Part shown: one piece after another, positions 11,913 through 64,000 of the stretch
How the letters are laid out: every line of letters starts with the position of its first letter
Position numbering within the stretch: the stretch's first letter is position 1
Origin: Trypanosoma brucei
Taxonomy: Eukaryota
Length of the DNA: 64,000 nucleotides
Reading direction: 5' to 3'
NCBI GenBank assembly: GCA_000002445.1
Contig: CP000067.1
Span: forward strand, 256,001 to 320,000
Made by a program: the position numbers and the translations under genes
The notes under the pieces: model-generated
What the model was told of the DNA's origin: nothing
What the model saw: the letters and a program-made list of their open reading frames with translations, nothing else
Databases searched by the model: none

Positions 11913-12583
11913 AAATAGCCACGCGTAGGGCAGCGCCCCCGTACTCCCTCGTGGTCGAAATGAAAGAGGAGGCGCAGTGCCTCTCGGGTGACGCAGGCGA
12001 ACGAAAAAGAAAAACAAGACGGAAGAGTGACGAAAGGAGCGTACATAAACACATATTTCCCGAGAGGGAAAAGGCCAAATGAAGCAACACCACATATGGG
12101 TATGTGATGAAAGAGCGACAAGACATATGGCGGAGTGCGGTATGCTGCCACACAAAGGAACGTGGAAAAGGAAAACGATGAAAAAAAAAATCCCACGAAG
12201 CATTCAAATCAGCTCAGTAGAGAGGGGGGCACCACCAATGCAGAAGGAGTGAAAGAAAAAACAACGACCCCACCCACATATATGCATCCCCGTATTTCCC
12301 ACAGCATATACACCTGCAATGCCACTCCCTCTCTTCAACCCTGAGATATGGAAATAAACAAAACCCCGTGACGCAGCAGCGACGTACCCGCGCAGCGTCA
12401 GGGCCCAGAAAGAGGAGAGAGTAGTGGCACGCCTTTATATCGAGAAACGATGGGACTAAAACAGAGAATTAAAGTATGAAGAGAAAACGTTAGGTGCCGG
12501 CTACACGGTGGAGAAATTGAGGACAAAAAAATGTCTGAGTAGCGGGAAAAAAAAAAAACGTACCAGAACCACCAACGCCGCCA

Positions 12584-15298: not shown

Positions 15299-18200
15299 CC
15301 CCTTAAATATTCAAGTGCCCCTTTTCCTCGCCTCGCGTCCACCACGCCTCAGGGAGCACTTAAAGAGAAAATTAAAACGAAAGAAAAAAAAAAAGGGAAA
15401 ACGGTGCGCCAATATAATTGGTACTCAAAAAAAAAAAGAAATGTGGTGTACAGACATATGTTTATATACACACATACATGCATTTATTTTGAAATAAAAA
15501 GAATGAAAAGATTAGAAAGGATTAGAAAAGAGAAAGGAGTAAGGTAAAGAAAAATAAAAATAAAAATAGAGAAGAGAAGACAGAAAAGACAGAAAAAAAC
15601 CCTGTGACTTATAACAAAGTACGTTCGTTAACCTCAGTAATGCACTAGGGTTCCATTTCTAGTAGTTTTTTTTTCCTTTTTTTTTTTGCTTTCCTCCTAA
15701 TTTCATTTTACTCTGACATGTAGTCGTTTCACTGTCCTCCCCCCTCCCCTCCCACATACCTTTTCCTTTCTTTCTTTTTTTTTTCCTCCCTCCCCCCTTT
15801 CCCTTCAGTTGCTCAGCGCATCTAAACAATACCACACACAGACACATAGCTTTAGTTTCTCCACACATTTACACAATTGTTTGCGCCATTGAAGGCTCTT
15901 TCATGCATCTGCATTAATGTTGCGAACACCCCCACAACGTGGGAACAAAATAACGGATGGAAGTGGTAATAATAATAATTATTATTATTATTATTATTAT
16001 TTAAAAAGAAAAGAAAGCAGTGAGGGAAGTGACAGCCGAGTGAGTGGCAATGGCGTGGCCGGTAGGCAAAACAATTTTGAGTTTCGGAATCTCCACCACT
16101 CGATTGTGTTGTCACCATTTCCTTCCAAAGTAAAAATTAAACAAAAAAGTGTTGTTGTTTTTTTTTTCTTCCATCATTCCGCCATTTCGATAGGGGGAGT
16201 CACAGACACACAAGAGCCGGCAATATGGCATTTGTTTTGTGGTGGTTATTGTGGTTGTTGTTTACTGCCTCCACATGTGTGGCAGTAAAGGAAAAAAAAG
16301 GGAAAAAGAAGAAGAAAGAAGAAGGAAGAAGGAATAAGGAATAAGGAAGGAAAAGAAAAAAGAAAAAAGAAAAAAAAACATCCTCACTTTTCCTCCACAC
16401 GAAAGCAAAACTGGCAATCCACGAGAAAACATGAGCCTCACATCTGAAAGATGTGAGTTCAAATAAAACAATTGCGCTTGCAACAAAACCCCGAACCAGC
16501 GGGGTTTCGTTACAAATGCGCATTGAAAAGGTATGGCAAAACGAAAAAAGAAAAGAAAAGAAAAGAAAAGAAAAGAGAAAAGATATGGACTGAAATGAGT
16601 TGACACACGGATGACTAGGGATGATAAATAAACAACTGCAACGGTTTTGATAAAACGACACGTGTTCTTTATGGACTTTTTTTTCTTTTCTTGCTTTTTT
16701 TGAAAGTTTGCCACTTATCGTTGGTTGTTGTTTCTTCATTTATTTATTCTTTTTTTTTTCCTCTCTTGGTTGTCCCGTCTTTCCGCACATCACATCTTGT
16801 TGTTCATTCCGCCACATCTCCACACACTCCTTTTGTTTTCCCTGAGTTATTGTTGTTGCTGTTGTTGTTGCTATATTATTATTGTTGTTATTACTATTAT
16901 TTCACATTTTTTTTCTTTTTAAACTACTTCCGTTTTCTTACGATTTCTTGGCTTTTTATTTTATTACATTTTATTTCATTTCATTTTTACCTCTTTTGTA
17001 CACTCTACCACACCTTTTCTTTTCTTTCCTTTTGTACTCTCACAATATCACCTCTACTTATTCCTTTCTTCAAACCACGGCAGAGGAAAACATGACACGA
17101 CAAATAATGAAATAAAATTAAGTTAACGATATAATTATATGAAGAAAAAAAAAAGAAAAAAAATGACGAGTTGACGCTGTGAAAAATCTACGAGGGAATG
17201 TCAAACAGCCGCTAAACTCAGTCCTCTCATTTGCCTGACGGGGAAACAAAAATGTGACGTGCATGAAAAAAAAAAAACAAAAAAAAAAGAAAATGAAAAT
17301 GAAAATGAAAAAGTGAAAACAAATGTTGGTAAAATAAATCATCGGACCCCGTCTTCATTTTAATTATCTTTATTATTATTATTGTTTTTTTTTACCGCTG
17401 CTGTTATTGTTATCAATAAGAAAAAGCACGCCGTGGTGATAAAAAAGAAAAAAAAGTGAGAGTAGAAGTAGAAAAAAAAAAAAATAAAACAACAACAACG
17501 TCAACAACAACAACAAAAAGAGGGAGAGGAGGTTTGATCAGCTGGCGGAAGAAAAAGTTGGGATCAAATTAAGATAACTTTCAAAAAAGAAAAAAAAAGA
17601 GAGAGGGGGAAAGGAAGGAAGGGAAATAAATAAATAAATGAGGGAGAGAAAGGGGGAAAAAAAAAAGAGAGAAAAGAGAAAAGGGAAGGAGAAGGAGAAG
17701 GGAAGGAAAAAGAAAAGAAAAGAAACTCCCATTCCCATTTACTTCACTTCATCACTGGCTTACTCACTTTACATGTGCGGTAATGTAAATATAAATACAT
17801 GTATAGACACATAAAGGAGTGCGGATACCCATACGGATATTCATACAGAAATAATATAAAGATAAACAAGATCGGTACATTGGTCTCATTCATCCACTTA
17901 CTCAATTTATTTATTTATTTGACTTTTGGTGACAACTGCGCGTTCATGGAGAAGAGGAAATCATGCAGTTTGAAGTGATGGAATTTTTTAAAAAAAAAAG
18001 CGGAGGTGCGTCCCATTTGACAAAAACATAACTCCTCACATTTTTTTTTTAAAAATGCTATTATTCTGTGGAGTTTTCTCCACCGAGGCCGAAGGATTAT
18101 TGATCATGGAAGAATTTGAAGAAATGGTGCACAATAATAATAATAAGTGATGGAAATGATGAAAAGGTGGGAAAACTTTAGAAAGAGGGCAGACAAATCC

Positions 18201-18999
18201 ACCACAAAGTGCAGCACCCTTCCGTAAACAATTTTTTTAAAAAGAAAACGTTCATGATTTCTCCTCCACTCGATCACTCACTCTTTCCTTCATTCTTTCA
18301 TTCATTCATTAACTGACAGAAGGGGAAAAGAAGAAAGAAGGTTAATAAATAAATAAATAAAAAGATGAATGGCCCGAGAGAAACACGCACATACGCGCGT
18401 CACGCAATCCACTGCGCAAACACATTCTGTTTTATATTAGCCAGGAGGAGATAAACAAAGGGGGAAAAGGGAGGGGCAAACAAACAAATAAAAACATAAA
18501 ATAGCATTAAAAGGGAAAAGCCGCAAAAAAAAAAAAAGCAAACGAAAACAAGGAGAAAAGAAAAAAGCCAGTTGCTTGAAGCATATCAAGAAAAACAGAG
18601 GCACGGGGAAGAAAAATAAGTGAATTTTGAAAAGTAATTATTTTTTTTTTGAAGGGAAATTTGCCTCACTGAAGTGCGGCAACAAACGCAGGCACGACAT
18701 GCGCATGTAAATATATATATTAAAATATGCGCCCCCGTGCCTGTTAAGGGGAGAGGAGGAAACACTCAAGGGAAAAAAGAGAAAGGGAAAATATGTGCCG
18801 CACTGACGTATATACTTCTGAAACATCACATACACAGGGACACATACACAGACACAAACACACACAAAAAAAAAAAAAACTGCCTCAAGGTTAATAAAAC
18901 TGGCTGAAAGGGAAAGAGAAGGGGAGGGGAAAAAAAAAAAATGGCGGCGGCCGCGGTTACGGCAAGGGGGAAAAAAATAGTAAATAAAAATGGGGTGCC
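15299..18999. repeat. 3.7-kb gene-free low-complexity region: alternating homopurine and homopyrimidine blocks, with (AAT/ATT)n, (GTT)n, (AAAG)n, (GAAAAT)n and (AAAT)n microsatellites
   Basis: No ORF over 180 aa, and only low-complexity translations. Visible runs: aataataataattattattatt (15958-15992), aaaagaaaagaaaag (16540-16580), ttgttgttgctgttgttgttg (16846-16870), gaaaatgaaaatgaaaatg (17291-17312). Confidence 0.85.
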
Positions 19000-19665
19000 C
19001 TACAGCTCCTGAGATCTTTCAGATGATTTTTTCAGCGACCTCACGGGCGGAAGAAACCCCTCGTCATCGCAAACAGCCCCACGGCGAGCTTCCAGCGGTG
19101 GTCGGACACCACTTCGCAGGCTCGCGTTGGATAACCGCTTCCCCGGCAGATCCACCAGAGACGAGGACATTTGCAGAGACTCGCAGCTTTCCTTTGATGA
19201 GTGGTATGTGCAATCGGAGCCGATGGATGAGCTCCGTGGGGATGGCGAAGACGCTTGATCCTGCCGCATGGCTTCGAATATGTAATTGAAATGTGGATGC
19301 GCATGACCCATCAACTGTTTCGTGGAATCCCCCTGTGGTGTTACAGGCGAATGGGGTTGCTCAGTAGGAGAAGGTATATGCTTCAATTTGTATTGACGAA
19401 ATGACAATTCCCCAAGTCGCATGAACACCAAGTGATTAAGCGCTCCCTCCTTCACAGCAGACTCATGAACCCGAAGCCGCTTATCCTTATACCCTTCCAG
19501 CGGGGCAAAAAACCAATTAACATAACCCTCAGGCTGCAACTCACCCACAAAACAATACCTTCTGTAGGAAAATGTACCCCCGAAATCCAACATGGGTGAG
19601 TAGCTGACCTTCGACAGAACCATGGGGACGCCGTCAACATTCATTTCCATAGGGAGCTCCATCAT
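19000..19665 (-). CDS. hypothetical protein (about 221 aa)
   Basis: ORF-track start 19689 is GTG; ATG at 19665 (MMELPMEMNV). N-terminal beta-rich region, Ser-rich tail. No confident family. Confidence 0.45.
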   Translation of the reverse strand: MMELPMEMNVDGVPMVLSKVSYSPMLDFGGTFSYRRYCFVGELQPEGYVNWFFAPLEGYKDKRLRVHESAVKEGALNHLVFMRLGELSFRQYKLKHIPSPTEQPHSPVTPQGDSTKQLMGHAHPHFNYIFEAMRQDQASSPSPRSSSIGSDCTYHSSKESCESLQMSSSLVDLPGKRLSNASLRSGVRPPLEARRGAVCDDEGFLPPVRSLKKSSERSQEL

Positions 19666-30988: not shown

Positions 30989-32134
30989 CAGTAAATAGCT
31001 ACGCCAGTAACAAAAATATTACGTCAAGAATATTATATATATTTATATATATATTTATATATATATACTTCCTCCTTCCTACCGTTTATAGCACCCGCCT
31101 TGTCGGTTGGGACCGCAGTGCCTCGCAGGAAGGGAGTTTTACCTTCCGCGTTTTCGTTAACTTTAGGCGATTTCATTGCGCACGATAATAATAAAAAGTG
31201 GAAACAAGCAAGAAGTTTGTAGTACGAACCCCTGTGTGTGAAGGGGGGGGAAGCATTCATTTAGAAAAACTTACGAGTGGTGTGGAGAGGAAATTGCTGG
31301 CGCATGTAAAAAAAAACAAAAAACAGATGGGACGCACATTCAACACAAAGCTGTATACAGCGCTCTCGAGGGTTCTCACACAACCTAAGTTTAGAAAACA
31401 AGCAAGCATTTCTCCCCTCCTCCCTCCAATTCGCGTTCCCCCGATTGTTTATTCGACAGCACCTGACGCCTTGCCCTCAAGTGTTCTCCTCTTCAACTCA
31501 TCTCCCCCAACCATTCACCTCCTTCACAGTTATAAGTAAAATGTGTAGGGGAAAAAGTAAAAACCATACAAGTAGTTACCTTCCATTACCTTTAGCTATC
31601 CCTAGTACGTAGCAATTCTCTTTCGTTGTCTCCTTCCTGTTCCCTTCGCTTGTGACCTTCAGCAGACCCTTGGGTTCCCACAAAACAGTCACAAAGGTTG
31701 AAGGTGGAAAGCAAGTGTAAACATCAACATGACAACTCACGCCAAATAAATAAAAAAAACATTTTCCCTCTCTCTTCCCTTCACGTGCGGACCCCCTGAA
31801 AATCAGTCCCCTTCCACACGGCTACTGTGAGAAGCAAACCTCACCGCATATGCCCTCCCCCATTCAAACACATAACTCGGGGGGAAAGGGATATAAGCAG
31901 AAAAGAAAAAAAGAAAAAGGAAGAAATACTCGCGTTAAGGGAAATTTTTGGGGGAAAAAAAAAAGAATAGCAAGGCAACGCCCTCTTCCCTCCTTTTGCC
32001 TTCCCTCCCTCGTGCTCTCCCTCCCATTTCCTTACAGATCGAAGAACTACTGTGCCCAGCAATGAACAAAAAGAGAAAAAAGACTTTTTCAGACTACACT
32101 CCTTTTTCCCAACTCCGGTTGAGTTTCAGTAGCA

Positions 32135-43326: not shown

Positions 43327-44025
43327 CCACTTCCCCCCCCTCCTCTATGTGTACGGTCACCGCCCCAATCAAAATGAGCGGGGAAACCCCGTTAAATTTA
43401 GGAGCAAAGGAAAGTCGCAGAGGGAGTGGACCAACAAGTTACCAGATTAATAATAAAGAGGAGGTGGGTGCTCATTCCTACCGCAATAGAAAAGATCCAA
43501 AGTGGTGGACTCGGGGATGATTAGCAAAGAAGTAGGGATCCATTGGATTGAAAACGCTCGGTTAGTTCACTCCGTACACGCACACCTCAGCTACTTCATT
43601 CAGCACACGTGCGCTTGTTCGTAACAGCAGCATGACAAATGCACGGACAAACGTCGACAGCGGAGAAACACAATCTTATCTTCTCTTGATTCTCCGTTTA
43701 AAAGGCGGGGAAGCTCACCATTTTCTGTGTTGCCTCTTTACCCTCGGAGTGTCATAATGTATTTCAAATGATTGTCACGCAACAACGGGCGTCTCCCCCG
43801 TTATTCTGCTACCTCTTCCCACCAAAGAGAATTGGGTTGGGATCGCTAAACACAACAACAGCCTCGTACCAAACTAACTCTGGAGGCCAATCAGAGATGA
43901 CGACTGCTCTAACGAGGGGTAACGTTGCGATCGACACAACGGTAGATTAAACGATCAATGCGCACGAGAGTCAGCCCTTTGACTAGCTCGCACCACATGT
44001 CGTGGTGCCCACCCACGTAGTAAAC

Positions 44026-44026
44026 A

Positions 44027-44061
<35 letters not shown>
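44026..44061. repeat. (CA)n microsatellite, about 18 units
   Basis: Run of acacac... at 44026-44061 in an intergenic spacer. Confidence 0.9.
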
Positions 44062-48639: not shown

Positions 48640-50803
48640 CGCAACGAGAGGCAAGCACCTTATACAAATTATTCGGGCTTGAAGAGCAGTGTTTTAAAAA
48701 AGTCAAAAGAAGAAGGGACATGTAACGAAGCAGCAAATATAATAATCAGTGGAGAAGAAAGCCGGGAATAGACATAGCAGGAGTTAATGAGACGCTGCCG
48801 GAACACAGCCAATAAATGTTGGCCAGTGGAGCTCCTCTAGTGACACGCAACCTTAATCTCTTTCCAGATATGAAACTCCCATTCCAACGCACTTTAGCTC
48901 ATAGCGCACCACCACCACCACTAGCTCACGCCACAGCGCGGGTACGACGGTACTGCTGGGATTGCGTTTGAACTTTTGCCCTCTGTAGTGGCGTTGAGAC
49001 CGAAGTAACTAGTGTGTCAGGTAAACTCAACAGCAAACAGAGATATGATAACGACTACGCGCCAACTCCTGCGTCCACAAGTACTTCGCCACATTCCAAG
49101 CTCACAACTGAAACTTAAATGATAGCCAAAGAGTCTAATCCAACACCTCTACACGTTGAGTCAGCTGCAGCCCATCCTGGTCACTCGTCAACGGAAAACA
49201 CAAGTGCACACCACTGAGAGCTGCTGGGAAGTCAAAACTGTAAGTAGACTGCATACCTCAATCCTCAGTCCTTTGTGTGTGTTCAACCTCCAGACACGTA
49301 GCATATACACAACTTTGCGCGCACAGATTGTTCCAGCCCCACCCATACACCACCAAAAACGTCAAGAATGTTCCCTCCCCCGCTCTGCCGTCTGTCACAC
49401 CTAATCTTCATCCCTCAACACCACAGCCACCTCTCCGCACACTGCTGCAGCAGTTGATGGCTGTGGTCAATCAGACCAACCTCCAACCGACACTGTTAAC
49501 ACCGCACCACTCTCGAATTAGTGAAAAGATGACATGCGTCGTCCAGTCGGTCGAACAACAAATATTGCAGGTCTACACCATCACGCAGGCAAACCAGCAG
49601 AATCCCACAACTTACCCAACAATAAGTGAAGCAATGCTCATCAGCGGTGTCAGGACTTTCTCTCCCGTAGCAAAAAGCCAACTATGATGTGTCACGGAGC
49701 CCCCTAGTACTCTTCCTAAACCCCACAGCAACCGTGCGTGGAGCGGGCCCAACACAATTTGAAGCTCTCTAGGCGCTTCAACAAACTGTGAAGTGCCTTC
49801 GTTTCTTCCTTCGCATGCATTTGCAAACAGAGCACAGCACCCGACTCGTTGCTGTCAACCTCAAACTGATATCTCGGCAGTTCTCCCCTTATGAAAGTAC
49901 CGGCCTTCCGATGGGAAAAGGTATATCAGCGAGAGGACATTGCGAAATATATCCGAACGACACAGCCTGAAATCAGTGCAAAACGTCGTACCGCTCCTCT
50001 CCATCCGTCTACCGCAAATAACTGGCGAGCAGATGTTTTGCGTGACCTGCAGGTTGCATCGAAATGTTGAGAGAATGAACAACATGTAACCAAGGTAATA
50101 CCAGCCCCCGTTCACACCTGTGAAACGATATCCATGTACGTACTGTTCAAAAGCAGACTTACCAAGCCATATAGCAGGGGTGAGGATCCGTTGCAAAGCG
50201 AAGGGGACAGACGACGTATAAAGGGTAAAAGCGAAAGGCACAACAAGGGATATTTCACCGCAGTAGCACCATAGCTACGCCTAAGCCCAGTACGAGCCCA
50301 TATAGCAACAGAGCCGTTGACCATCGCGCAAAAAACGAGTTTAATCGCGCATGAGTTGAGAGTCTACGTCCAGCAACTGACCGAAGGGTGCGACGTAGGG
50401 TTGAAACAAAAACCAAGTGGTGGTCACCTACGACAATACAGCGCCTTAATGTGCGGCAAAGATCGTCCAATTAGAGCCTAGGTAATCCCCGAACTCACAC
50501 ACGTGGTGTACATGAAGCTATGTAGTACAAACATCGAACGCCTATGAACATATCAACCATTTAAATGTACCATCTCGACCGAATGTCGCGAATTTGTGCG
50601 CGCAAGACCGACCAAACAACACAAAACTGAGCTAGTGATAGAACCAAGGCCACTGAACTGGGTACGGTTAAGGGGCGTTTTGTGATACTCTACACCGTCC
50701 CGACACCTCAAGTGCGTGAATTAAGCAATAAAAAATGCTGCGAGGTTAACCACCGAAACAGCAACCCTGCGGATCGGTACCCGCACCGGACGTCGATACT
50801 CTA

Positions 50804-53530
50804 TCACGACCATTTTTTAAGGAAAGGGTTGACGAGCACGTCCGGGTCGTCTGAAGAATCCCTCTTCCCCTCGACGACAGGAGGTATATCGCCACCCCAA
50901 ACGTGTCTCGTGGGCTGCGGAGAACCAGCTTGGTGACGCTGCGTGAAGTTCAGTGGCGCTGCGGGATACCCCGCGCTTGCTGCCGTTGGTGGTTTTGGAT
51001 GTGCTAACGAAGTCTTACTGGGCCCCATGCTTAGCTGTTTCACGGCAGAAGTTGGAACGGGCGCAAGATTCACCACAGGGGGCAGTGGGGCCGACACGCC
51101 TGCTGCAGCACCCGGAAATAGTTCCGCGGGACCACTCTGTGGTCCACCTTTAATAGGGTGGACTTCAGCCGCCTGATCTCCATGATGCTGCAGGTTCGTT
51201 GAAACCCTTCCAGCACATTGGAATTGCACTTCATTCGCTGATACCCTTTCCGTTTTAAAGTGTCTCCTTTGCTTCCAGCATTGTTGCAAAAATCCAGACG
51301 CGCTGACAGCAACAATACTAATAACTGTGAAAAAAAGTGTGCTCATATTTATCGAAGACGTTTCGCCTCCGTAAGTTCCCACATCACCACCAGCGAACGG
51401 GTTAGCATCGAGGGTTTGAGACTGCCCTGGAGCAGGTGTATTGCCGTGACTATCACCTACAGTGGTATTATCACTGGCGGTACAGCGGCAACCACCAACC
51501 GAAAAATCAGACTTATCTCGACCCCCTTGAACTGCTTCGTCGGTTAATCCAACAGTGTCCACGATTTTCGCCACAACCTGCCTAAGCTTCATAACACCTT
51601 CACGGCACTCGGGCACCAATTGATTCTGAACAACGCAGCGCCCCCTCATATTATACACATCGTCACCAATCAGGCTGGCGAGTGCGCTCGCGTCGTCAGC
51701 CAACTGCTTCAAAAGCACAACAAAATCCGTTCCATCCTCTCTGGTCTCTTCTAAAGAGACCTTGCCATCCCTCTCATAACGTTTCTGCAACTCAGTTTCA
51801 TCATCATCAGGTTGCTGTGGCTCAGCTTCATTATCATCAGGTTGCTGTGGCTCAGCTTCATTATCATCAGGTTGCTGTGGCTCAGTTTCATTATCATCAG
51901 GTTGCTGTGGCTCAGTTTCCTTATCATCAGGTTGCTGTGGCTCAGCTTCATTATCATCAGGTTGCTGTGCCTCAGTTTCCTTATCATCAGGTTGCTGTGC
52001 CTCAGTTTCATTATCATCAGGTTGCTGTGGTTCAGTTTCCTTATCATCAGGTTGCTGTGCCTCAGTTTCCTTATCATCAGGTTGCTGTGCCTCAGTTTCC
52101 TTGTCATCAGGTTGCTGTGCCTCAGTTTCCTTATCATCAGGTTGCTGTGGTTCAGTTTCCTTATCATCAGGTTGCTGTGCCTCAGTTTCCTTATCATCAG
52201 GTTGCTGTGCCTCAGTTTCCTTGTCATCAGGTTGCTGTGCCTCAGTTTCCTTATCATCAGGTTGCTGTGCCTCAGTTTCATTATCATCAGGTTGCTGTGG
52301 TTCAGTTTCCTTATCATCAGGTTGCTGTGCCTCAGTTTCCTTATCATCAGGTTGCTGTGCCTCAGTTTCCTTGTCATCAGGTTGCTGTGCCTCAGTTTCC
52401 TTATCATCAGGTTGCTGTGCCTCAGTTTCATTATCATCAGGTTGCTGTGCCTCAGTTTCATTATCATCAGGTTGCTGTGGCTCAGTTTCCTTATCATCAG
52501 GTTGCTGTGCCTCAGTTTCATTATCATCAGGTTGCTGTGCCTCAGTTTCATTATCATCAGGTTGCTGTGCCTCAGTTTCATTATCATCAGGTTGCTGTGC
52601 CTCAGTTTCCTTATCATCAGGTTGCTGTGCCTCAGTTTCCTTATCATCAGGTTGCTGTGGCTCAGTTTCCTTGTCATCAGGTTGCTGTGCCTCAGTTTCA
52701 TTATCATCAGGTTGCTGTGCCTCAGTTTCATTATCATCAGGTTGCTGTGCCTCAGTTTCCTTATCATCAGGTTGCTGTGCCTCAGTTTCCTTGTCATCAG
52801 GTTGCTGTGCCTCAGTTTCCTTGTCATCAGGTTGCTGTGCCTCAGTTTCATTGTCATCAGGTTGCTGTGGTTCACTTTCATTATCATCAGGTTGCTGTGC
52901 CTCAGTTTCCTTATCATCAGGTTGCTGTGCCTCAGTTTCCTTATCATCAGGTTGCTGTGGTTCACTTTCATTATCATCAGGTTGCTGTGCCTCAGTTTCC
53001 TTGTCATCAGGTTGCTGTGCCTCAGTTTCATTGTCATCAGGTTGCTGTGGTTCACTTTCATTATCATCAGGTTGCTGTGCCTCAGTTTCCTTATCATCAG
53101 GTTGCTGTGCCTCAGTTTCCTTATCATCAGGTTGCTGTGGTTCACTTTCATTATCATCAGGTTGCTGTGCCTCAGTTTCCTTGTCATCTGGCGGCTTTAC
53201 ACGAGCTGATCCATTGGTGGTGTGTGCTGCATCCCTCTCCTCTTCGTTGTGGTTTTTGGCTCTCATCACTTGGCTGCCGCGGCCCACGTTGTTCTCGTCC
53301 GCCTCCTGACGTCCTTGGGCGCCAGTCTTGAGCTGAGTATCGGTTCTGTGGAGGCCGCCATCGCCTTCGACAGGAAACCGAGGTGCTCTGTTGCTTCTGC
53401 GCACTGCTTTCAATGTCCGTGCCTCGCCCACTTTACCTGTGTTAGCGTGTGCTATACAAGTAGAACACCAGCCTGCAACGCATGACACAACGGTTAACAG
53501 AAGTATCTTTGCGGTGTGGAGATGACGCAT
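50804..53530 (-). CDS. repetitive acidic type I membrane (surface) protein: signal peptide, about 47 copies of a QQPDD(K/N)E(T/S)E(A/P) decapeptide, an about 150-aa domain, TM helix, and a Pro-rich cytoplasmic tail
   Basis: ATG at 53530. N-terminal signal peptide MRHLHTAKILLLTVVSCVAGWCSTCIAHA. TM helix LFFTVISIVAVSASGFLQQCW at about residue 735. It is the only one of six open frames across the repeat with a signal peptide, a TM helix and the strand of the gene array. Confidence 0.75.
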   Translation of the reverse strand: MRHLHTAKILLLTVVSCVAGWCSTCIAHANTGKVGEARTLKAVRRSNRAPRFPVEGDGGLHRTDTQLKTGAQGRQEADENNVGRGSQVMRAKNHNEEERDAAHTTNGSARVKPPDDKETEAQQPDDNESEPQQPDDKETEAQQPDDKETEAQQPDDNESEPQQPDDNETEAQQPDDKETEAQQPDDNESEPQQPDDKETEAQQPDDKETEAQQPDDNESEPQQPDDNETEAQQPDDKETEAQQPDDKETEAQQPDDKETEAQQPDDNETEAQQPDDNETEAQQPDDKETEPQQPDDKETEAQQPDDKETEAQQPDDNETEAQQPDDNETEAQQPDDNETEAQQPDDKETEPQQPDDNETEAQQPDDNETEAQQPDDKETEAQQPDDKETEAQQPDDKETEAQQPDDKETEPQQPDDNETEAQQPDDKETEAQQPDDKETEAQQPDDKETEAQQPDDKETEPQQPDDKETEAQQPDDKETEAQQPDDKETEAQQPDDKETEPQQPDDNETEAQQPDDKETEAQQPDDNEAEPQQPDDKETEPQQPDDNETEPQQPDDNEAEPQQPDDNEAEPQQPDDDETELQKRYERDGKVSLEETREDGTDFVVLLKQLADDASALASLIGDDVYNMRGRCVVQNQLVPECREGVMKLRQVVAKIVDTVGLTDEAVQGGRDKSDFSVGGCRCTASDNTTVGDSHGNTPAPGQSQTLDANPFAGGDVGTYGGETSSINMSTLFFTVISIVAVSASGFLQQCWKQRRHFKTERVSANEVQFQCAGRVSTNLQHHGDQAAEVHPIKGGPQSGPAELFPGAAAGVSAPLPPVVNLAPVPTSAVKQLSMGPSKTSLAHPKPPTAASAGYPAAPLNFTQRHQAGSPQPTRHVWGGDIPPVVEGKRDSSDDPDVLVNPFLKKWS
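51791..53190. repeat. tandem array of about 47 near-identical 30-bp units (consensus plus strand ttatcatcaggttgctgtgcctcagtttcc)
   Basis: Directly visible in the sequence. Units differ at 3-4 positions only (c/a, g/c, a/g), which gives the K/N, T/S and A/P alternations. All six frames are open across it. Confidence 0.95.
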
Positions 53531-56826: not shown

Positions 56827-58057
56827 TTGATTTGGTGGCGAGTGATATCAGATCTTGACGTCGAGCTAATGAGACTCAGTACGAAAAAAGTGCACGCAAC
56901 CTTTGTTTTCGTGGCAATGACAAAAGGTTCAAGTACCTTTAATGTGCGTAAAGAAGTTTTTTATAAAAAACTAAATTCATTTTTTGAAGCCCCACCAATC
57001 GGAACCCATCCACTCCTTCAATACTAACCACAGTGAAGTACTGGGATGTTATCGTGCAAAATAAAAAGGGTTGTGCATACGTGCTTATGCAACATAATTG
57101 ATTTCGTTCCACCCCCGTGTCAGATTTTCCTGGTTAGCACCTCCAACGTTTTGCTGGTACCTTTAAACGACAAATCTGTTTAGACAACATAGGAAAAGGC
57201 AAAGGAGTGAAAAGAAAACGTTAAAGGTGCCGCTGAAGGTTTGCACCACCTCAAAAAAACAAATAAATAAATAAAACGACGGTGGGGTAGAGAAGCGACT
57301 GCTGGTGGCGTAAACGGTGGATGCTGCAACCTCCGAAAAATGGCATATCTCTCTCAGGTCGTGGAGAGCAAACCATTCAACTAGAATGGCGAAAAGGAAG
57401 CACGGCAGACAAGTGCGCTTCTTCAAATCGCACGCACGCACGCACCATCACAGTGAAAAGGGGTATATGACACCTTTAGTTGGCTTCATGAACCAATGTA
57501 CAAATATTAGTAATACCATGTCCGAAAAATACAAGTCGCATTGCGCAATCAAACCGACGACGGGTTTGAGAAAGATGTGCCTTCAAGTAGTTGGTAAAAG
57601 GAGGGAAAGTTCGTACACACAAGCGAATGTGAGAGAGCCGCAATAATGGTTTCCCCGCTCTTCTGTTATTACACCGCCTGAATGAGACATTGTCCCTTCC
57701 CATCACCCTCAACAAGTTGATTACACCCATGGCACCAAATCTCCGCGTTGTGGAAACACGCGGCACGCCCATAATAAGCAGGCAAACTCACTACCACCCC
57801 ACACACATTTACGTCATTGGGAAGTTCTTGGCGCTCAACTTGGCTTGGGTGACAGATACAGCATTTTTTCTCTAGTTTCAGCGGCATAAAAATGGTTAGC
57901 TGCGGTTGAGCAGGACGTCAACAATCGTTAAATTCGGTGAATGGATCCTCCCCACCACCCCACCACCAAAAGGGAAAAAATGCAATCACGCGCAAACACG
58001 GCAAATCATAAAAACGCACTGAGGGGCCGCTTGATCATTAGGTAACCACACATTTGC

Positions 58058-58060
<3 letters not shown>

Positions 58061-58088
<28 letters not shown>
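58061..58088. repeat. (AC)n microsatellite
   Basis: acacac... x14 at 58061-58088. Confidence 0.9.
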
Positions 58089-61000
58089 CAAAATGGCACC
58101 ATCCTTAAAGTGAGGCGGAAGGGTAAGGGACATTTTCACCTTCCCATCAATCACTTAAAGCGACATAAGTGGCAGTAAGTGTGGCAACTTCAAGGGAAAA
58201 GGCAGTCCAAGTTGACAAGAGAAGGCAACATTATCCCAGCGGATATTCAACAAAATGTGAGATGCTGGGTTCTATCTAGTAAGCAGAACGGCATCTTACC
58301 CCTTCCTTTGAAGGGTGAACCCACATAATTAAACAAAGAGAAAAAGAAAATATCTGAACAAAAAACCAACGTACTCACTTATAAGTGTATATTGTAGCTT
58401 GAATGAAGACAGTGAGGCGCAGCACTCGATAAAGAATAAAATTTTGTTGTCAACCGTTCGCCGCAGTGAAAGATCACATAAAGGAAATACAGTGCGGGAA
58501 TCACCGCAAAACTTTCCAGAGTCCGTCTTCATCCTTCAAATCAACCTCCATAAAGACGACGAGTTGGAACAGCAAATTCCGAGCCGCTACAACCTCCAGC
58601 CGACGTAGTGCAAAACTGTGAAGCTCTCACATATTTAGCCGACGATCCAATCCTGTTTTTTTCTCTTTTCACACACTGCTGCATTCAAAAGTAGAAAGCG
58701 AGCAGAACAATTTGAACTTAAAAAACGGGGAAGCTAGGCTGTGACATATATCCCACAGCTGTGATCACCCAACTCCCAGCGCTGGGGATAAAACTGGAAA
58801 GTTAATCAGGGAAACAAACGAATGCATCAGACGCTCCTACAGGAAAAAAAAAGATCTGACTCATTCTAATTGACCCAGAAGCGCAAAAGGTTATAGTATC
58901 GCTGCTGTGAAGAGTAGCTTCATCACCACAACCGTCGCGTGGCATCAGCAACCCCTAACACCACATTACAGCAACTGTTACACGGTTTTTTAAAAAAAAA
59001 TCGTACCGTTAAGGGTACCAGCCTAAACAAAGACGTAAAAGCGTCCCTAATAGCATCGATTATTGAAAATGCTGAGTGAAAAATGTGCCTCACGTACCAA
59101 AGCAGTGCGTAAGCTCTTCTTATGCACAACTCAACCCAAGCCTTTCGGGGTCAAGGAAGTTTTTTTCTTGGATGGCCGTATGTACAGCCCAGCACTCGAG
59201 GGAAGCGCAGTCCGCGCAAAGGTAGTAAGGCATTGGGGTGGTGAACCCTCAAAAATGAAATTCCAGCGCATCACTACGAACGCATAGTCAAGCGTTCGGA
59301 ACCCTTGTACAAAACCAAACATCAAAAAGAGTTGCTGATGCAAATGGCGTACAAGTGAGGGCGCTCACAGAAGTTGTTAGCGCCTGCACCACTGTCACCC
59401 CCTCCCCTTCCCATCTCTCCATATGTCGGGTCAGTTATGTGCTTACCGATGGGCAAAACGGTTGAATAATAAGCAACAAACCGTAGTAACCTTCATTTTG
59501 ACTTCAACACAAAAACATTCTTGGCTTTCGCAGATATCCCCGCTCCAAGAGGATTGAAAGGACCGCACATACAACTGAACCTCCAAACAGCCAAAAGGGG
59601 GAAAGTCACCGGCACAACCTAACATCCACCACGCAAGAAGGATACAGAAGTGCCACGTCACAAAAATCAGTACATTCACTACACTAATACCTTCGCTTCG
59701 GACTGGTTACAACCAGTTCGCCGCGAGATAGGGCGCTACTGGATGAAGCTCGCAACCCCTTCACACCTCGCCCACAAAAGTCCAGGATACTTTACAGCAC
59801 ATTGTATGGTCCCCTTCAACGGCGACGACCACGACTGCATTGCACAATTTTGACGGATGGTTTTAAAAAAACAAGCGGAAGAAACAGGGGAATGTGCACA
59901 TACGATCCAACAAAGAACGTAGTAGCAGAATCAGGCTCACGAATTTCATCCTTGCAGCATCTTGCCGCTCCGGAAACCATATAAACAGTAACTTGAAAAC
60001 ACATTTCCACTACTACGCATACACAGAAAATAATGTGTGGTGCGCCGCGGAAGAACGTGCACGCCGACACATAGCAGATGCATCAATAAAGCAAACTAAG
60101 ACCAAATAACACAGGTTCAAACGGTTACATTGGTCGCATCACAAAGTAGCACTGGTAGCCGGTACAAATGCTAACAATGCCCAAACTTCTCAACGAATCA
60201 ACAAGTTATGTCCCTTCGTTGTTGAAAGAATCACATGATCATAAACACACAAGTACGTTTCCACAACCTACCTTCTCCCAGTCCACAAGACAAATAACGG
60301 ACTGAACAGTCCACTATGATGTCCCTTATTACTTTTTTTTCTTTAAAAAAATGACAAAGAACAGTTCTTCTGTCATAGTGTTGCTCCCAGAAAGTCCCAT
60401 TGAACACATGGGGTGGTAGAACACACGTAACCTCATTACCACTCGTGGTGTGGTACCTACATTGTACCCAATATGCAGATCGGTTATCAGAATCAGTTAA
60501 TCACACCAACACTGCAATTCTTTCCGCGAGTACCGACACATGTTATTCGAAGTGACGGCGTGATGTCAGCGACACGTGGCGACGGCGGTGCCGTAACCCC
60601 AGCGCCTGCTTCATGGCCAACATAAATAAGTTCCTGGTAATAGCTGGTTAAGACCTATTGCACCAACTATGTCGAATTACCGCCCAAGACTTAAAAACCG
60701 CGGCAGCTGAAGGAGGGAATGACACAGAATGGGTCAGGAAGCGGGAGAGAAATGATGATATTCACCTCCCCTACTTCTATTTGCAAAGCTTTAAAAAAAA
60801 CTCTACTATTCTCCATCCACCTCATAGCTGAGGTTGAGACCCTCAAATGAATTTCCACAGAAACACACACACACACCCGAAACCTTCTGTAACCCACCGC
60901 ACCAAACCATCATTGGGATCTCCGCTTCCGACTCTTTGCATGGATCAAGTGCAGGAAGATACATTACCAAGGAAAGAACACAAACGTAACTAGCACTACA

Positions 61001-61905
61001 AAAAAAAAAACTAACCTAATGAGGAGGGGCACAATGGAAGAAAATGCCCTGAAAGGACCGTGACACTTCGCCAGCACCATGGAAATCAAGCACGATTCTT
61101 CCAATCGCTTATAAAGGCACGAGTTTGACCACTCGCGTTTAACCTGGAATAGCAGAAGCCAGCAATCACTGTGTTCCAGATGGGGACCGTTATCCAGGCA
61201 TCGCAAGGCGGACCCGCTGCAACAGATACTTCTGTAAGACTAGGAAATATTCAAACAGAGAAATAGGTGAGGAAAACTGTATTTGTTCGAGGTGAAAAAA
61301 AACTCCCAGGAGCATCTGCCAACAAACACACGGGTGTGGAGTTCGGTGTAATCGCCCCCTGATGGTGGCGGGGGCGGCGTACCCTTAGAGGGGCTAAGTT
61401 CACGCGCAAGATGGGAACGCAGCCAAATATGCTTAAAAGCAGGTACAGTCACTCGCTTCAATGGGGGTGATAGCCTCGGACGGCGCGGTAGAACCCGAGT
61501 GGACACACTTCTGAGGCCACACCATCCTCACCACGTTACATCCGAATGCGGTGCTGGAACTTGCTTCGCCCGCGAATTTTATTGAAGGCACAGTGTCTTT
61601 CCAACGGGGAAAGAGGTTACCTCTGATGAGAGGATGTGTGAAATCACCGCCACACTCTATCTCCAAACGGCATTGGGGAAAAATTGGAAAGGTGGCGGAA
61701 ATAACTGCAGGGCCCTCTCCCGAAAAGGAAGAAAAAAGTCGCCATTAGCGCTTCCTACGACAAAATGTGAAAGCTTTGTACATCTTTATGAAGGATTGGA
61801 AAGAAAAACGAGGGGAAGTATTTTAGAACACACTCCGTCACTGACGAAAGCGGAAACCCCAGGGCGAGGCCGACACCTCGTCACTCACCCTTCCCACTAG
61901 ATGCG

Positions 61906-61910
61906 GAAAA
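61906..61910 (-). terminator. Pol III terminator T-run (T5) downstream of the tRNA-Pro
   Basis: Minus-strand GC then TTTTT follows the discriminator base (plus strand aaaaa at 61906-61910). Confidence 0.5.
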
Positions 61911-61912
61911 AG

Positions 61913-61984
61913 CGGGCCGTTGCGGGAATCGAACCCGCGGCCTCCTGTACCCGAAACAGGAATCATGCCACTAGACCAAACGGC
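61913..61984 (-). tRNA. tRNA-Pro (anticodon CGG)
   Basis: Minus-strand read GGCCGTTTGGTCTAGTGGCATGATTCCTGTTTCGGGTACAGGAGGCCGCGGGTTCGATTCCCGCAACGGCCC. 7-bp acceptor stem GGCCGTT/AACGGCC. A box TGGTCTAGTGG. Anticodon stem CCTGT/ACAGG with loop TTCGGGT (anticodon CGG, G37). B box GGTTCGATTCC. Nearly identical to canonical eukaryotic tRNA-Pro. Confidence 0.85.
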
Positions 61985-62059
61985 CACCGCGTCAGGGGCG
62001 ATAATTAATATACTTCTGGGTGCCACCTAAATTTCCACGTTCAGTCGTTGTTGACATTT

Positions 62060-62236
62060 GTTCAGGTGAGGCGATGCCGGCCACCTCAACGTGGTGCCAT
62101 GGTCCAGTACCCCGTATCATCGGGGGAAGCCAAGAGCCAGCAGCATTCCTTTCATGGGGAACAATGCTTTGCTTTTGCAACGGCACCGAGCAGCACTGAG
62201 ATGAGCCGCGCCGTGATGGAGAACATTTTTTTTTTG
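62060..62236 (+). ncRNA. candidate Pol III small RNA, divergent from the tRNA-Pro and ending in a T9 run (speculative)
   Basis: The stretch lies about 80-250 nt upstream of the tRNA 5' end on the opposite strand. GC-rich with hairpins (ccacctcaacgtgg; ccccgtatcatcgggg) and ends ...gagaacattttttttttg (T9 at 62227-62236). In T. brucei, Pol III snRNA-type genes pair with a divergent upstream tRNA whose A/B boxes act as the promoter. No match to a small RNA I can recall. Confidence 0.15.
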
Positions 62237-63467
62237 TAGAGCCCTGGGCACGTGTTCTCGTGCTATCGGCAGTTTGTTCTATGAATCACTGATTTGTTTC
62301 CGTTGGACTGATAAGTGTTCATGAGGCAATTTTCACCTTGCAGTGGCAGCTGTAGTCTCTCGACTGAGTGAAAGATGTGTGTGAGTTTGTCGTCCGAAGC
62401 GAAAAGGTGATGTAGTTGGCGGCGCTTAATGAAATAGCTGCGGTGCTGTTGACTGTTCCTCATGCGTGGAACGGGCGTAAAGCGGCATTTAAGAGGGTGC
62501 TGCATGTTTGATGTGTTTTCACTTCCGGAATAATTCGGTGGTGGCGTAGACGTACTACTATGTTTGTTGCAGCGGCCGTAGCGCTGAGTTATTGCACCGG
62601 TCAAGAAGTAGAACTAGAGCACGGGGAAAATGAAAAACCAGTAGTTTTGTGCTCAGGCGTATACCCAAAGTGTTCCGTATGTGTTGAGTAGGATAAACGG
62701 AGAAAAAAATGGATGAGAGCGTGGCGTTCACCAGAGTGGGTGCAATTAGAGGGTCCCCGAACTAACGGTTAAAAAATATATCACTTTTCCAGGTTGTCAC
62801 AGGAGTTTTGTCACATGAGCCCGCTATGTGCAGCCCCTAAGCATCAAGGGAAGAATCTTTGTAAGTATAGGAACACCGATCGTAATAAATGGGCGCAGAG
62901 ACTGCCGGTGTTGTTGAGTTCTAGATTAAGGTAAACACAAGTTTTTAATTCCGAGCACGAAGTGTGTTGTAATTGAAGGGTATGTATCATTTATAGTGTG
63001 TGCTACTGGGTGTTTCTCACGCACAAGAAATACTTTGTTGATACCACAAAATCAAGAATACTGTAGTCTTTTTCCTCACGGAATGTAGAAAAATCGAAGG
63101 TGAATGCAAGGTCGTCACTTTAGCGTATACAATGGTTTCATCTCATTTTTTATCTTTCTTTTACTGACCTGGAAATAACGCTTTTGTTACCCCGGAGTCA
63201 GATGATAGGTGGGCCTTTCAGGGAGACGGGGAACAAATACAATGCAAGTGGAGATGACAAGGGTGTGGTAGATGAATGATTCGCAATATGGGGGGAACTT
63301 GCGGTAAATTTACTATCTCTTGTACAGGTGTTGGTTGTATGATCGTACTTAGTATTGTGGAAGTGTTTTTTTTTCACCATTGTTTTGTACGTGTTGTATC
63401 TGTTGTTGTTGGGTGGTAAAGTGTTTATATTTTGTTTTTTGTGTGTTTGGGTAGGGAATTGTAGGTA

Positions 63468-64000
63468 ATGAAAGTCAAGATTATAGAATGGTTGGTCTTC
63501 CTATCTTTTGTTATTTATACCGAAGGGGCCGAAGACGAAGGTCGCTGCAGACTGGTAGATGATCATTCTTTTAAAAATTTACATGAATCCGTATGCTATC
63601 TCAGCTGCCTTTCGGATGCACTAAACAAATTATACACCAATGGAGAGAGGAAGTTGCTTGTGAATGAGGAAGTATATGCGAACGCATCTCGTATATTGGA
63701 TGATATGGAAGGGAGAGCAGGTGAAAGTGTCAAATATTTGAGTGTTATTAGTGATGCAATGGGAGGGAAACATGATAAATTGGAAAAACTTATATCTTAT
63801 GGAAATACAATGGGAGACCTGGTGGCTAAGGTAGGTGGATTATTTGCTGATGTTAATGAAAGTGTGAGGGTGGTGAGAGAGCTGTTGCCCACTGCCCTCA
63901 TGGAAGCAAATAGATACTATACGGCCAGTGCAGAAATTACAAGGACTGTGTGGGATGATGTTAAGGCGGTAGAGGGCAGCGACGAGGAAGCTGCAAAGTG
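63468..64000 (+). CDS. N-terminal part of a secreted/surface-type protein (signal peptide plus helical ectodomain), running past the window end
   Basis: ATG at 63468, preceded by a T/G-rich tract and AG (..gtagggaattgtaggtaATG). Predicted signal peptide MKVKIIEWLVFLSFVIYTEGAED. 177 codons with no stop. AT-rich third codon positions, unlike the upstream genes. The helical, Cys-poor sequence resembles ectodomains of trypanosome surface protein families. Confidence 0.5.
   Translation, partial: MKVKIIEWLVFLSFVIYTEGAEDEGRCRLVDDHSFKNLHESVCYLSCLSDALNKLYTNGERKLLVNEEVYANASRILDDMEGRAGESVKYLSVISDAMGGKHDKLEKLISYGNTMGDLVAKVGGLFADVNESVRVVRELLPTALMEANRYYTASAEITRTVWDDVKAVEGSDEEAAK

What the first reader, a model, noticed from the sequence alone, without database searches (positions are those of the whole stretch)
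51791..53190. The 30-bp array is almost unit-perfect, implying concerted evolution or recent expansion, and a likely collapsed or variable assembly region
About 47 units differ at only 3-4 positions. Long identical tandem repeats are where short-read assemblies collapse or mis-size copy number, and copy number is often polymorphic between strains. All six frames are open across the array, which is why the ORF track shows five overlapping ORFs of 400-900 aa here. Only the minus-strand frame is biologically plausible.
Basis: seen in the sequence. Interest (0 to 1): 0.5.

Follow-up and report, generated by a model that had tools for sequence, protein, structure and literature searches.

The report
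Variable coding minisatellite in trypanosome membrane protein
The 30-bp array is real and is the in-frame repeat region of an uncharacterised Trypanosoma brucei membrane protein gene (Tb927.4.1160); it differs in unit number and order between strains and breaks other genome assemblies, which is ordinary for a parasite tandem-repeat gene.

Summary
The array is confirmed: 51791-53188, period 30, 46.6 copies, no indels. In coding register it is 47 units at 51782-53191. The window is T. brucei TREU927 chromosome 4. The array lies in a 908-aa minus-strand ORF, by gene order Tb927.4.1160. The protein has a signal peptide, a basic N-terminal region, 47 copies of PDDKETEAQQ, a 4-Cys region, a TM helix and a Pro-rich tail.

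There are 12 DNA unit types and 11 variable positions, six of them recurrent. Only five of six frames are open.

Its main inferences hold:
- T. equiperdum IVM-t1 has 30 units in a different order.
- T. b. gambiense DAL972 has a 100-N gap inside the array.
- The T. equiperdum OVI contig ends inside it.
- The non-repeat coding sequence of this gene is 99.5% identical between strains, and array ends are conserved while the interior is scrambled.
- TREU927 carries multi-unit duplications.
- Syntenic orthologues in six other Trypanosoma species carry a tandem array (period 30 bp; 27-30 in T. vivax) at the same place, with a different ER/K-like unit. This is the pattern expected of concerted evolution.

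Whether TREU927's own count of 47 is correct cannot be tested without reads. This is an ordinary coding minisatellite, and its function as a stalk is inferred.

The parts
50804..53530 (-). 908-aa ORF plus stop codon. Assigned to Tb927.4.1160 of T. brucei TREU927 chromosome 4 by gene order. Predicted type I membrane protein, annotated 'hypothetical' in its orthologues.
   Evidence: ORF. Organism from exact matches of the neighbours to AAZ10699, AAZ10700 and AAZ10708. Gene number from Tb927.4.1140 = PI4K (PMC7595295) and Tb927.4.1170 = ankyrin (bioRxiv 2025.07.26.666928). The IVM-t1 orthologue RHW73039 is named 'hypothetical protein'.
53444..53530 (-). Predicted signal peptide, about aa 1-29 (MRHLHTAKILLLTVVSCVAGWCSTCIAHA). 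The cleavage site is estimated by eye.
   Evidence: Kyte-Doolittle 19-residue windows above 1.4 at aa 4-29. The equivalent hydrophobic N-terminus is present in the T. theileri, T. melophagium, T. grayi, T. conorhini, T. rangeli, T. vivax and L. tarentolae orthologues.
53192..53443 (-). Non-repeat basic N-terminal ectodomain segment, about aa 30-113. Segment 1-113 has pI about 10.
   Evidence: It differs by 1 of 339 nt between TREU927 and IVM-t1 or DAL972.
51782..53191 (-). In-frame 30-bp array: 47 units with consensus CCTGATGATAAGGAAACTGAGGCACAGCAA = PDDKETEAQQ, aa 114-583. Net charge -161, 13% Pro, 16 N-X-S/T sequons created by the K4N unit variant (NET or NES).
   Evidence: TRF. Unit parsing. 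Composition.
52802..53161 (-). Higher-order duplication: units 2-13, the six-unit block DAADGC twice. It contains a 215-bp exact repeat at lag 180.
   Evidence: Unit map. Exact-run scan.
51992..52411 (-). Higher-order blocks ACAEB / ACAE / ACAEB (units 27-40). They carry all three copies of the TREU927-only unit type E. Exact runs are 196 bp (lag 270), 169 bp (lag 150) and 139 bp (lag 120).
51347..51781 (-). Post-repeat ectodomain, about aa 584-728, acidic, with 4 Cys. This includes a C(x10)C pair that aligns with a Cys pair in T. theileri and T. grayi.
   Evidence: The AF2 single-sequence model has too low confidence to use (pLDDT 40).
51278..51346 (-). Predicted transmembrane helix, about aa 729-751 (MSTLFFTVISIVAVSASGFLQQC).
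   Evidence: Hydropathy windows up to 1.91. It aligns with the hydrophobic segment of the orthologues.
50807..51277 (-). Pro-rich basic cytoplasmic tail, about aa 752-908, ending NPFLKKWS. The motif N-x-F-L-x-x-W-S at the C-terminus is invariant in T. brucei, T. theileri, T. grayi and L. tarentolae.

Best explanation
The array is a coding minisatellite. It consists of 47 in-frame 30-bp units that encode the central ectodomain of a type I membrane protein. The gene is Tb927.4.1160 of T. brucei TREU927, and it is conserved by synteny across trypanosomatids.

At the DNA level, the array appears to be kept near-uniform and constantly re-sized by out-of-register recombination, slippage or conversion between units. 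This mechanism is inferred from the patterns found; only the patterns themselves are shown. The results are:
- interiors that are scrambled between strains while the first and last units stay anchored;
- strain-specific multi-unit duplications;
- units that resemble each other within a species far more than units of the orthologous array in other species, which is the concerted-evolution pattern.
The same property defeats short-read and low-coverage assembly.

At the protein level (inferred, not shown), the repeat forms a long, polyanionic, proline-punctuated, N-glycosylatable extended spacer. It would hold the small basic N-terminal segment away from the membrane. Copy number would set the length of this spacer and is only loosely constrained. 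In other Trypanosoma species the same position holds an ER/K-type charged repeat that would form a single alpha-helix rod. This suggests that length and charge matter more than the exact sequence.
For: Shown:
- Array and register.
- Only the 908-aa frame extends beyond the array, and all genes of the region lie on the minus strand.
- Organism and gene identity.
- Signal peptide, TM helix and tail.
- Orthologues in IVM-t1 (738 aa, 30 units) and DAL972 (at least 33 units plus a 100-N gap). The gene's non-repeat coding sequence differs at 7 of 1317 nt, while unit orders are not alignable.
- First unit (type I or M) and last units (FFL or FBO) are conserved in position while interiors differ.
- Block duplications DAADGC x2 and ACAE(B) x3. 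The second set carries every copy of the TREU927-only unit E.
- Arrays sit at the same place in the syntenic gene of T. theileri (20.5x AEAEEAERRR), T. melophagium, T. grayi, T. conorhini, T. rangeli and T. vivax. The period is 30 bp, or 27-30 bp in T. vivax. L. tarentolae has none at the DNA level.
- Within-species unit identity is 0.87-0.93 against 0.52-0.67 between species.
- Four contig ends and two N gaps fall at this array among the ten assemblies inspected.

Inferred:
- Spacer function, from net charge -161, 13% Pro, 16 sequons, and i/i+4 opposite-charge pairs of 0 in T. brucei against 0.18-0.37 in other species.
Against: - No expression, localisation or glycosylation data were found. 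Tb927.4.1160 is absent from the main text of all searchable papers. It is also absent from the held supplements of the TrypTag, surface-proteome and cell-surface-phylome papers.
- No homologue is detectable by sequence outside Trypanozoon. Orthology with other species therefore rests on synteny, architecture and the C-terminal motif, with about 19% identity.
- Copy-number differences come from assemblies of uneven quality. IVM-t1 was built from MiSeq reads plus only about 7,500 PacBio reads (PMC6395869).
- TREU927's own count is unverified.
- The exact 908-aa product is not in the 15-billion-protein collection although its neighbours are. The deposited gene model may therefore differ from this window.
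- AF2 gave no usable model.
Confidence: 0.8

Rival explanations
1. The TREU927 array as given is mis-assembled, either collapsed or mis-sized. On this view 47 is not the true copy number and the unit order is partly artefactual.
For: The same array is unresolved in six other assemblies, with contig ends or N gaps. There are internal exact repeats of 139-215 bp. The exact 908-aa product is not in the protein collection although neighbouring TREU927 proteins are. That would fit a different copy number in another deposited version. TREU927 is diploid, and its two alleles could differ in length (my own knowledge).
Against: The array has no N or ambiguous base, keeps its frame, and has the same anchored first and last units as other strains. 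The longest exact internal repeat (215 bp) is shorter than a Sanger read, so in principle the variant pattern makes each read placeable (read length and the Sanger origin of TREU927 are from my own knowledge). Differences from other strains are not explainable by simple collapse, for example 4 against 8 D-type units.
Confidence: 0.2
2. The repeat is maintained mainly as an immunodominant tandem-repeat B-cell antigen, acting as a decoy or 'smokescreen', rather than as a structural spacer. Unit turnover would then be driven by immune selection.
For: Tandem-repeat proteins of trypanosomatids are often strong serological antigens (my own knowledge of the TR-antigen literature, not tested here). 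The ectodomain location is predicted. Four of the six recurrent variable sites change the amino acid. Five of 7 substitutions in the non-repeat coding sequence between TREU927 and other strains are non-synonymous.
Against: No serological data were found for this gene. The counts of substitutions are tiny, and the ankyrin neighbour shows a similar ratio of 3:1. The repeat position and 10-aa period are conserved in the stercorarian and T. theileri-group species examined (their differing host immune contexts are my own knowledge), which argues for a structural role.
Confidence: 0.15
3. The array is non-coding satellite DNA, or one of the other open frames (plus strand 549, 465 or 402 aa; minus strand 478 aa) is the real product.
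For: Five frames are open across the array.
Against: Those ORFs end within about 110-140 nt of the array. They encode low-complexity strings with no start context. The plus-strand ones run against a unidirectional minus-strand gene cluster. Open frames are expected for a 10-codon unit, at about 0.62 per frame by my calculation. Only the 908-aa frame has a signal peptide, a TM helix, a conserved C-terminus and syntenic orthologues.
Confidence: 0.02

Closest known systems
CRAM (cysteine-rich acidic repetitive integral membrane protein) of T. brucei, whose coding repeat is one of the three classical hypervariable minisatellite markers MS42 / CRAM / 292 (MacLeod et al. 1999, as cited in PMC2481433)
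   Same: Both have a type I membrane protein architecture with a long acidic tandem repeat making up most of the ectodomain. In both, a coding minisatellite has an allele size that varies between T. brucei stocks. The architecture of CRAM is from my own knowledge.
   Different: The unit here is 10 aa (30 bp) and contains no cysteine. CRAM's unit is 12 aa and Cys-rich (my own knowledge). No sequence relationship was tested because no CRAM sequence was available. This locus was not shown to be any of the three named markers.
ER/K single alpha-helix (SAH) spacer domains
   Same: The orthologous arrays in T. theileri, T. melophagium, T. grayi, T. conorhini and T. rangeli are E/A/R/K decapeptides. 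They have 0.18-0.37 i/i+4 opposite-charge pairs per residue, at the same position in the protein. The idea of a length-setting spacer carries over.
   Different: The T. brucei unit PDDKETEAQQ has a proline every 10 residues, no i/i+4 salt-bridge pairs and net charge -3. It should not form an SAH.
Procyclins (EP / GPEET) of T. brucei
   Same: Both are acidic, proline-containing short tandem repeats predicted to form an extended polyanionic surface structure (procyclin properties are from my own knowledge).
   Different: Procyclins are small GPI-anchored proteins with dipeptide or pentapeptide repeats. This protein has a TM helix and a 157-aa cytoplasmic tail and a 10-aa unit.
Trypanosomatid tandem-repeat (TR) antigen genes in general, for example MARP, GM6, T. 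cruzi CRA/FRA and Leishmania K39
   Same: All share near-identical in-frame repeats, copy-number variation between strains and chronic assembly problems. The general assembly point is made for T. cruzi in PMC5994713, listed but not read in detail.
   Different: Many of those are cytoskeletal or cytoplasmic. This one has a signal peptide and a TM helix. Antigenicity is untested.

Membership tests
Coding minisatellite / tandem-repeat protein gene | Head-to-tail units whose period is a multiple of 3, in frame with a longer ORF | tested here: met
   Period 30 with 0 indels. The 47 units are in frame in a 908-aa ORF that extends 339 nt and 978 nt beyond the array.
Coding minisatellite / tandem-repeat protein gene | Copy number and internal unit order differ between strains while flanks are conserved | tested here: met
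   47, 30 and at least 33 units with different unit maps. The gene's non-repeat coding sequence is 99.5% identical. Caveat: these are assembly-based counts, not read-based ones.
Concerted evolution of a repeat array | Units are more alike within a species than between orthologous arrays of different species | tested here: met
   Within-species identity is 0.87-0.93. Between-species identity is 0.52-0.67 at the best in-frame rotation. Orthology of the arrays rests on synteny and position in the gene.
Concerted evolution of a repeat array | Edge units escape homogenisation | tested here: met
   The first unit (CCA..., type I or M) and last unit (...GAGTTGCAGAAA, type L or O) are private to the ends and positionally conserved across strains. 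Five of the 11 variable positions occur only in the terminal units.
Collapsed assembly region (in this window) | Excess read depth, or long reads longer than the assembled array | not testable with these tools
   No reads are available. Indirect evidence only: the longest exact internal repeat is 215 bp, and other assemblies break here.
ER/K single alpha-helix domain | Dense i/i+4 E-to-K/R pairs and no helix breakers | tested here: not met
   The T. brucei unit has 0 such pairs and one Pro per 10 residues. Orthologues in other species score 0.18-0.37.
CRAM | 12-aa cysteine-rich acidic repeat (definition from my own knowledge) | tested here: not met
   The unit is 10 aa and the repeat region has 0 Cys.
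Procyclin (EP/GPEET) | GPI-anchored small protein with EP or GPEET repeats (definition from my own knowledge) | tested here: not met
   The protein has an internal TM helix followed by a 157-aa tail and a 10-aa unit.
Classical T. brucei minisatellite markers MS42 / CRAM / 292 | Identity of the locus with one of the three markers | not tested
   The markers are named in PMC2481433. The primary papers are not held. From my own knowledge, none of them has a PDDKETEAQQ unit.
Any Pfam family | Match at or above the gathering score | tested here: not met
   No family was found for the T. brucei protein or its T. theileri, T. grayi and L. tarentolae orthologues.
NPF-type endocytic sorting motif in the tail | Conserved Asn-Pro-Phe | tested here: inconclusive
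   The C-terminus is NPFLKKWS in T. brucei and NPFLQRWS or NPFLSRWS in T. theileri, T. melophagium and L. tarentolae. T. grayi has NLFLQRWS. The invariant pattern is N-x-F-L-x-x-W-S.

The most novel reading that the evidence does not exclude
A trypanosomatid-wide type I membrane protein has kept a decapeptide (30-bp) tandem array at one fixed position throughout the genus Trypanosoma. In the lineage leading to T. brucei, after the split from T. vivax, the whole array was rewritten by concerted evolution. An ER/K single-alpha-helix rod became a proline-punctuated, strongly acidic, N-glycosylatable chain. In this chain a single K/N unit variant switches glycosylation sequons on and off. Copy number (30-47) and sequon density would then be fast-evolving tuning knobs for how far the N-terminal segment reaches through the surface coat.
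Probability: 0.2. Interest if true: 0.5.

Novelty: new member of a known kind. Interest (0 to 1): 0.3.

Why it matters
There are three practical uses.
- The locus is a caveat for anyone using this gene model. The length of Tb927.4.1160 and its orthologues is assembly-dependent: DAL972 has a gap and a frame break, and several draft genomes truncate the gene.
- The array could serve as a PCR-sizable or unit-mappable strain marker for Trypanozoon.
- It is a compact example of concerted evolution. The unit order is scrambled between subspecies whose non-repeat coding sequence in this gene differs by 0.5%. The repeat period is conserved across the genus while the unit sequence is replaced.

Biologically, it marks an unstudied membrane protein that is conserved by synteny. 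It has a large acidic, potentially glycosylated ectodomain and an invariant C-terminal N-x-F-L-x-x-W-S motif. None of this is surprising for a trypanosome repeat protein.

Tried and rejected
- The search for homologous proteins found nothing, either with the C-terminal 328 aa or with a 4-species alignment. Yet P0023, which is 98% identical, is in that collection, and phmmer on the 50% representatives found it at 1e-215. I treat this as a limit of the word index and not as biology.
- phmmer against 1.84 billion representatives gave only the T. equiperdum orthologue and a spurious repeat protein, P0024. Orthologues in other species were therefore reached through the conserved ankyrin neighbour.
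- T. congolense could not be fetched.
- Pfam gave nothing.
- AF2 on the C-terminal 328 aa as a single sequence gave pLDDT 40. No fold search was run.
- Literature: Tb927.4.1160 is not in any main text. It is also not in the held supplements of TrypTag, the bloodstream surface proteome or the cell-surface phylome.
- Guessed Leishmania and Lister 427 gene IDs gave nothing useful.
- The MacLeod minisatellite papers are not held.
- Exact look-up of the 908-aa product and of an M89-start variant failed.
- Rejected readings: the plus-strand or alternative minus-frame ORFs as genes; a non-coding satellite; membership of CRAM, procyclin or ER/K SAH for the T. brucei unit.
Full report
**Observation**

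Tandem Repeats Finder reports a single strong array at 51791-53188: period 30, 46.6 copies, 94% matches, no indels, score 2383. The raw sequence shows it directly.

- Read in the coding register of the minus strand, it is 47 units at window 51782-53191.
- There are 12 distinct DNA units and 7 distinct peptides.
- Positions 9, 12, 16, 17, 21 and 22 of the unit vary recurrently. Two of these changes are synonymous. The other four are K/N, T/A, T/S and A/P.
- Five further positions vary only in the first or last unit.
- Mean pairwise unit identity is 93.2%.
- Five ORFs of 402-908 aa overlap the array. The sixth frame has 197 stops, so 'all six frames open' is incorrect.
- Because the period is divisible by three, each frame repeats ten codons. 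Open frames are therefore expected by chance.

**Where the window comes from**

Nearly all long ORFs lie on the minus strand. They encode eukaryotic proteins without introns: V-ATPase A, EMP70, PI4-kinase, IP5 2-kinase, PDCD2 and an ankyrin protein.

- Exact look-ups identify T. brucei brucei TREU927 chromosome 4. The matches are AAZ10699, AAZ10700 (TREU927 only) and AAZ10708.
- Papers place Tb927.4.1140 at the PI4-kinase gene and Tb927.4.1170 at the ankyrin gene.
- By gene order the repeat gene is therefore Tb927.4.1160.
- No paper in the library mentions that identifier in its main text.

**The gene and its protein**

Only the 908-aa frame (50804-53530, minus strand) extends beyond the array. 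Its parts, are:
- a hydrophobic signal peptide;
- a basic N-terminal region running to residue 113;
- the repeat at residues 114-583, with net charge -161, 13% Pro and no Cys;
- an acidic region with four cysteines;
- a hydrophobic helix at about residues 729-751;
- a basic, proline-rich tail of 157 residues ending NPFLKKWS.

Sixteen units carry N-X-S/T sequons, because the K-to-N variant creates NET or NES. Pfam finds nothing. A single-sequence AlphaFold model is unusable, with pLDDT 40.

**Other strains, reached through the ankyrin neighbour**

- T. equiperdum IVM-t1 (L002) has 30 units and a 738-aa product annotated 'hypothetical protein'.
- T. b. gambiense DAL972 (L003) has at least 33 units. 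A run of 100 N lies inside the array and shifts the frame.
- The T. equiperdum OVI contig (L001) stops 10.4 units into the array.

The unit maps are:
- TREU927: IDAADGCDAADGCCABBJAABBBHBBACAEBACAEACAEBAFHKFFL
- IVM-t1: MDBDDCDBNAAADABDDCBDCBBAAAAFBO
- DAL972: MAPQDRNBBSCBDTU-WBCBDXPDBDDBDCFBO

What these maps show:
- The common unit types A, B, C, D and F are shared by all three full-length arrays, so the variants predate the split of these strains.
- The first and last units are positionally conserved.
- The interiors cannot be aligned.
- The non-repeat coding sequence of the gene differs at only 7 of 1317 nt, and the surrounding 5 kb on each side is about 99% identical.
- IVM-t1 has eight D units against four in TREU927, so the difference is not a simple collapse.
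- TREU927 carries a tandem duplication of the six-unit block DAADGC, with a 215-bp exact repeat.
- TREU927 also carries three copies of the block ACAE(B). These contain every copy of the TREU927-only unit E.
- Together these blocks add about 15 units. The excess over IVM-t1 is 17 units.

**Other species**

The gene immediately downstream of the ankyrin orthologue has the same architecture in every trypanosomatid inspected.

| Species | Locus | Array at the same position | Assembly state |
|---|---|---|---|
| T. theileri | L004 | 20.5 x 30 bp, AEAEEAERRR | intact |
| T. melophagium | L010 | about 17.5 x 30 bp, QAEAEEARRR, with 9-bp indel variants | intact |
| T. grayi | L005 | at least 18 x 30 bp, QAEAEEAQRR | N gap inside the array |
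| T. conorhini | L006 | 30-bp units | contig ends inside the array |
| T. rangeli | L009 | 30-bp units | contig ends inside the array |
| T. vivax | L008 | E/Q/R-rich repeat of 27-30 bp, after a signal peptide | contig ends inside the array |
| L. tarentolae | L007 | no DNA tandem repeat; a charged E/R/K/A/Q stretch | intact |

- The C-terminal motif N-x-F-L-x-x-W-S is invariant in the four sequences aligned.
- The T. theileri, T. melophagium and L. tarentolae orthologues looked up by name are annotated only as hypothetical, uncharacterised or 'transmembrane protein'.
- Within-species unit identity is 0.87-0.93. Between species, at the best in-frame rotation, it is 0.52-0.67.
- T. brucei against T. 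grayi gives 0.57. In 2,000 shuffles the 95th percentile was 0.47 and the maximum was 0.57.
- This is the expected signature of concerted evolution. It also hints weakly that the units share ancestry.
- The units of the other species have dense i/i+4 opposite-charge pairs, typical of ER/K single alpha-helices. The T. brucei unit has none and has a proline every ten residues.

**Interpretation**

What is shown:
- The array is an in-frame coding minisatellite.
- It is variable between strains and troublesome to assemble.
- It is homogenised within species.

What is inferred:
- The homogenising mechanism is out-of-register recombination, slippage or conversion.
- The protein role is a length-setting, polyanionic, possibly N-glycosylated spacer in a membrane protein.

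What remains untested:
- Whether TREU927's count of 47 is correct. The longest exact internal repeat (215 bp) is longer than a short Illumina read of about 100-150 bp but shorter than a Sanger read (read lengths are my own knowledge). This favours a correct assembly but does not prove it.
- The IVM-t1 count. That assembly used 2x300-bp MiSeq reads and only about 7,500 PacBio reads (PMC6395869), so its count is also provisional.
- Why the exact 908-aa product is absent from the large protein collection while its neighbours are present. This remains unexplained.

**Comparison with known systems**

- The closest analogue in T. brucei is CRAM. It is a type I membrane protein with an acidic coding minisatellite that is used as a hypervariable marker (PMC2481433). 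The unit here is different, and membership is not supported.
- The T. brucei unit fails the ER/K SAH definition, although its orthologues fit it.
- The protein is not procyclin-like in its anchoring.

**Verdict**

The finding is a new, uncharacterised member of a well-known kind. The phenomenon itself is ordinary for trypanosomes.

Noticed in passing
L003 (T. b. gambiense DAL972, FN554967) about 12089-12188; L005 (T. grayi) about 11960-12117: Reference or draft assemblies carry runs of N inside the orthologous arrays. In DAL972 the 100-N run is not a multiple of the unit in register, and it shifts the annotated reading frame. The called product is 766 aa from an 801-codon span.
   Followed up: yes
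L004 13067-13324 (T. theileri); L005 13219-13512 (T. grayi): There is a second, longer-period tandem duplication (117 bp x2.2 and 156 bp x1.9) in the proline-rich cytoplasmic tail of the orthologues. It is absent from the T. brucei gene.
   Followed up: partly
window 50804-53530 (product): The exact 908-aa translation, and a variant starting at M89, are not in the 15-billion-protein collection. TREU927 neighbours are exact matches there. The deposited Tb927.4.1160 model may differ from this window in its start or its copy number.
   Followed up: partly
window 48655-50803: A stretch of about 2.1 kb downstream of the repeat gene contains no ORF of 200 aa or more. In IVM-t1 and DAL972 the gap between called genes at this place is the same size. 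It could be a long 3' UTR, but this was not examined.
   Followed up: no
window 56827-64000, tRNA at 61914-61985 (-): This is an ORF-poor 7-kb stretch with a single tRNA-Pro(CGG). GC skew flips from about -0.1 to +0.26 in the last 2 kb. It may mark the upstream end of the minus-strand gene cluster or a strand-switch region.
   Followed up: partly
window 15300-19000: This is a low-GC (34-43%), A-rich stretch with no ORF of 200 aa or more. It holds several short A/G-rich tandem repeats: AAGAAGA x9 at 16309, AAAAG x6 at 16546, and others at 16525, 16954 and 17273.
   Followed up: no
window 44024-44060, 58060-58088, 31030-31067: Dinucleotide microsatellites (AC)18, (CA)14 and (AT)19 lie between genes. 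They are potential genotyping markers.
   Followed up: no
window 50807-51781 and 53192-53530, compared with L002 and L003: Five of the 7 substitutions in the non-repeat coding parts between TREU927 and each of IVM-t1 and DAL972 are non-synonymous. The counts are too small for a test, and the ankyrin neighbour shows 3:1 and 2:1.
   Followed up: partly
tool behaviour: The word-indexed protein search returned no hit for a query that has a 98%-identical representative in its own collection. The index-free phmmer search found that representative at 1e-215. Negative results from the indexed search on proline-rich or low-complexity queries should not be trusted.
   Followed up: yes
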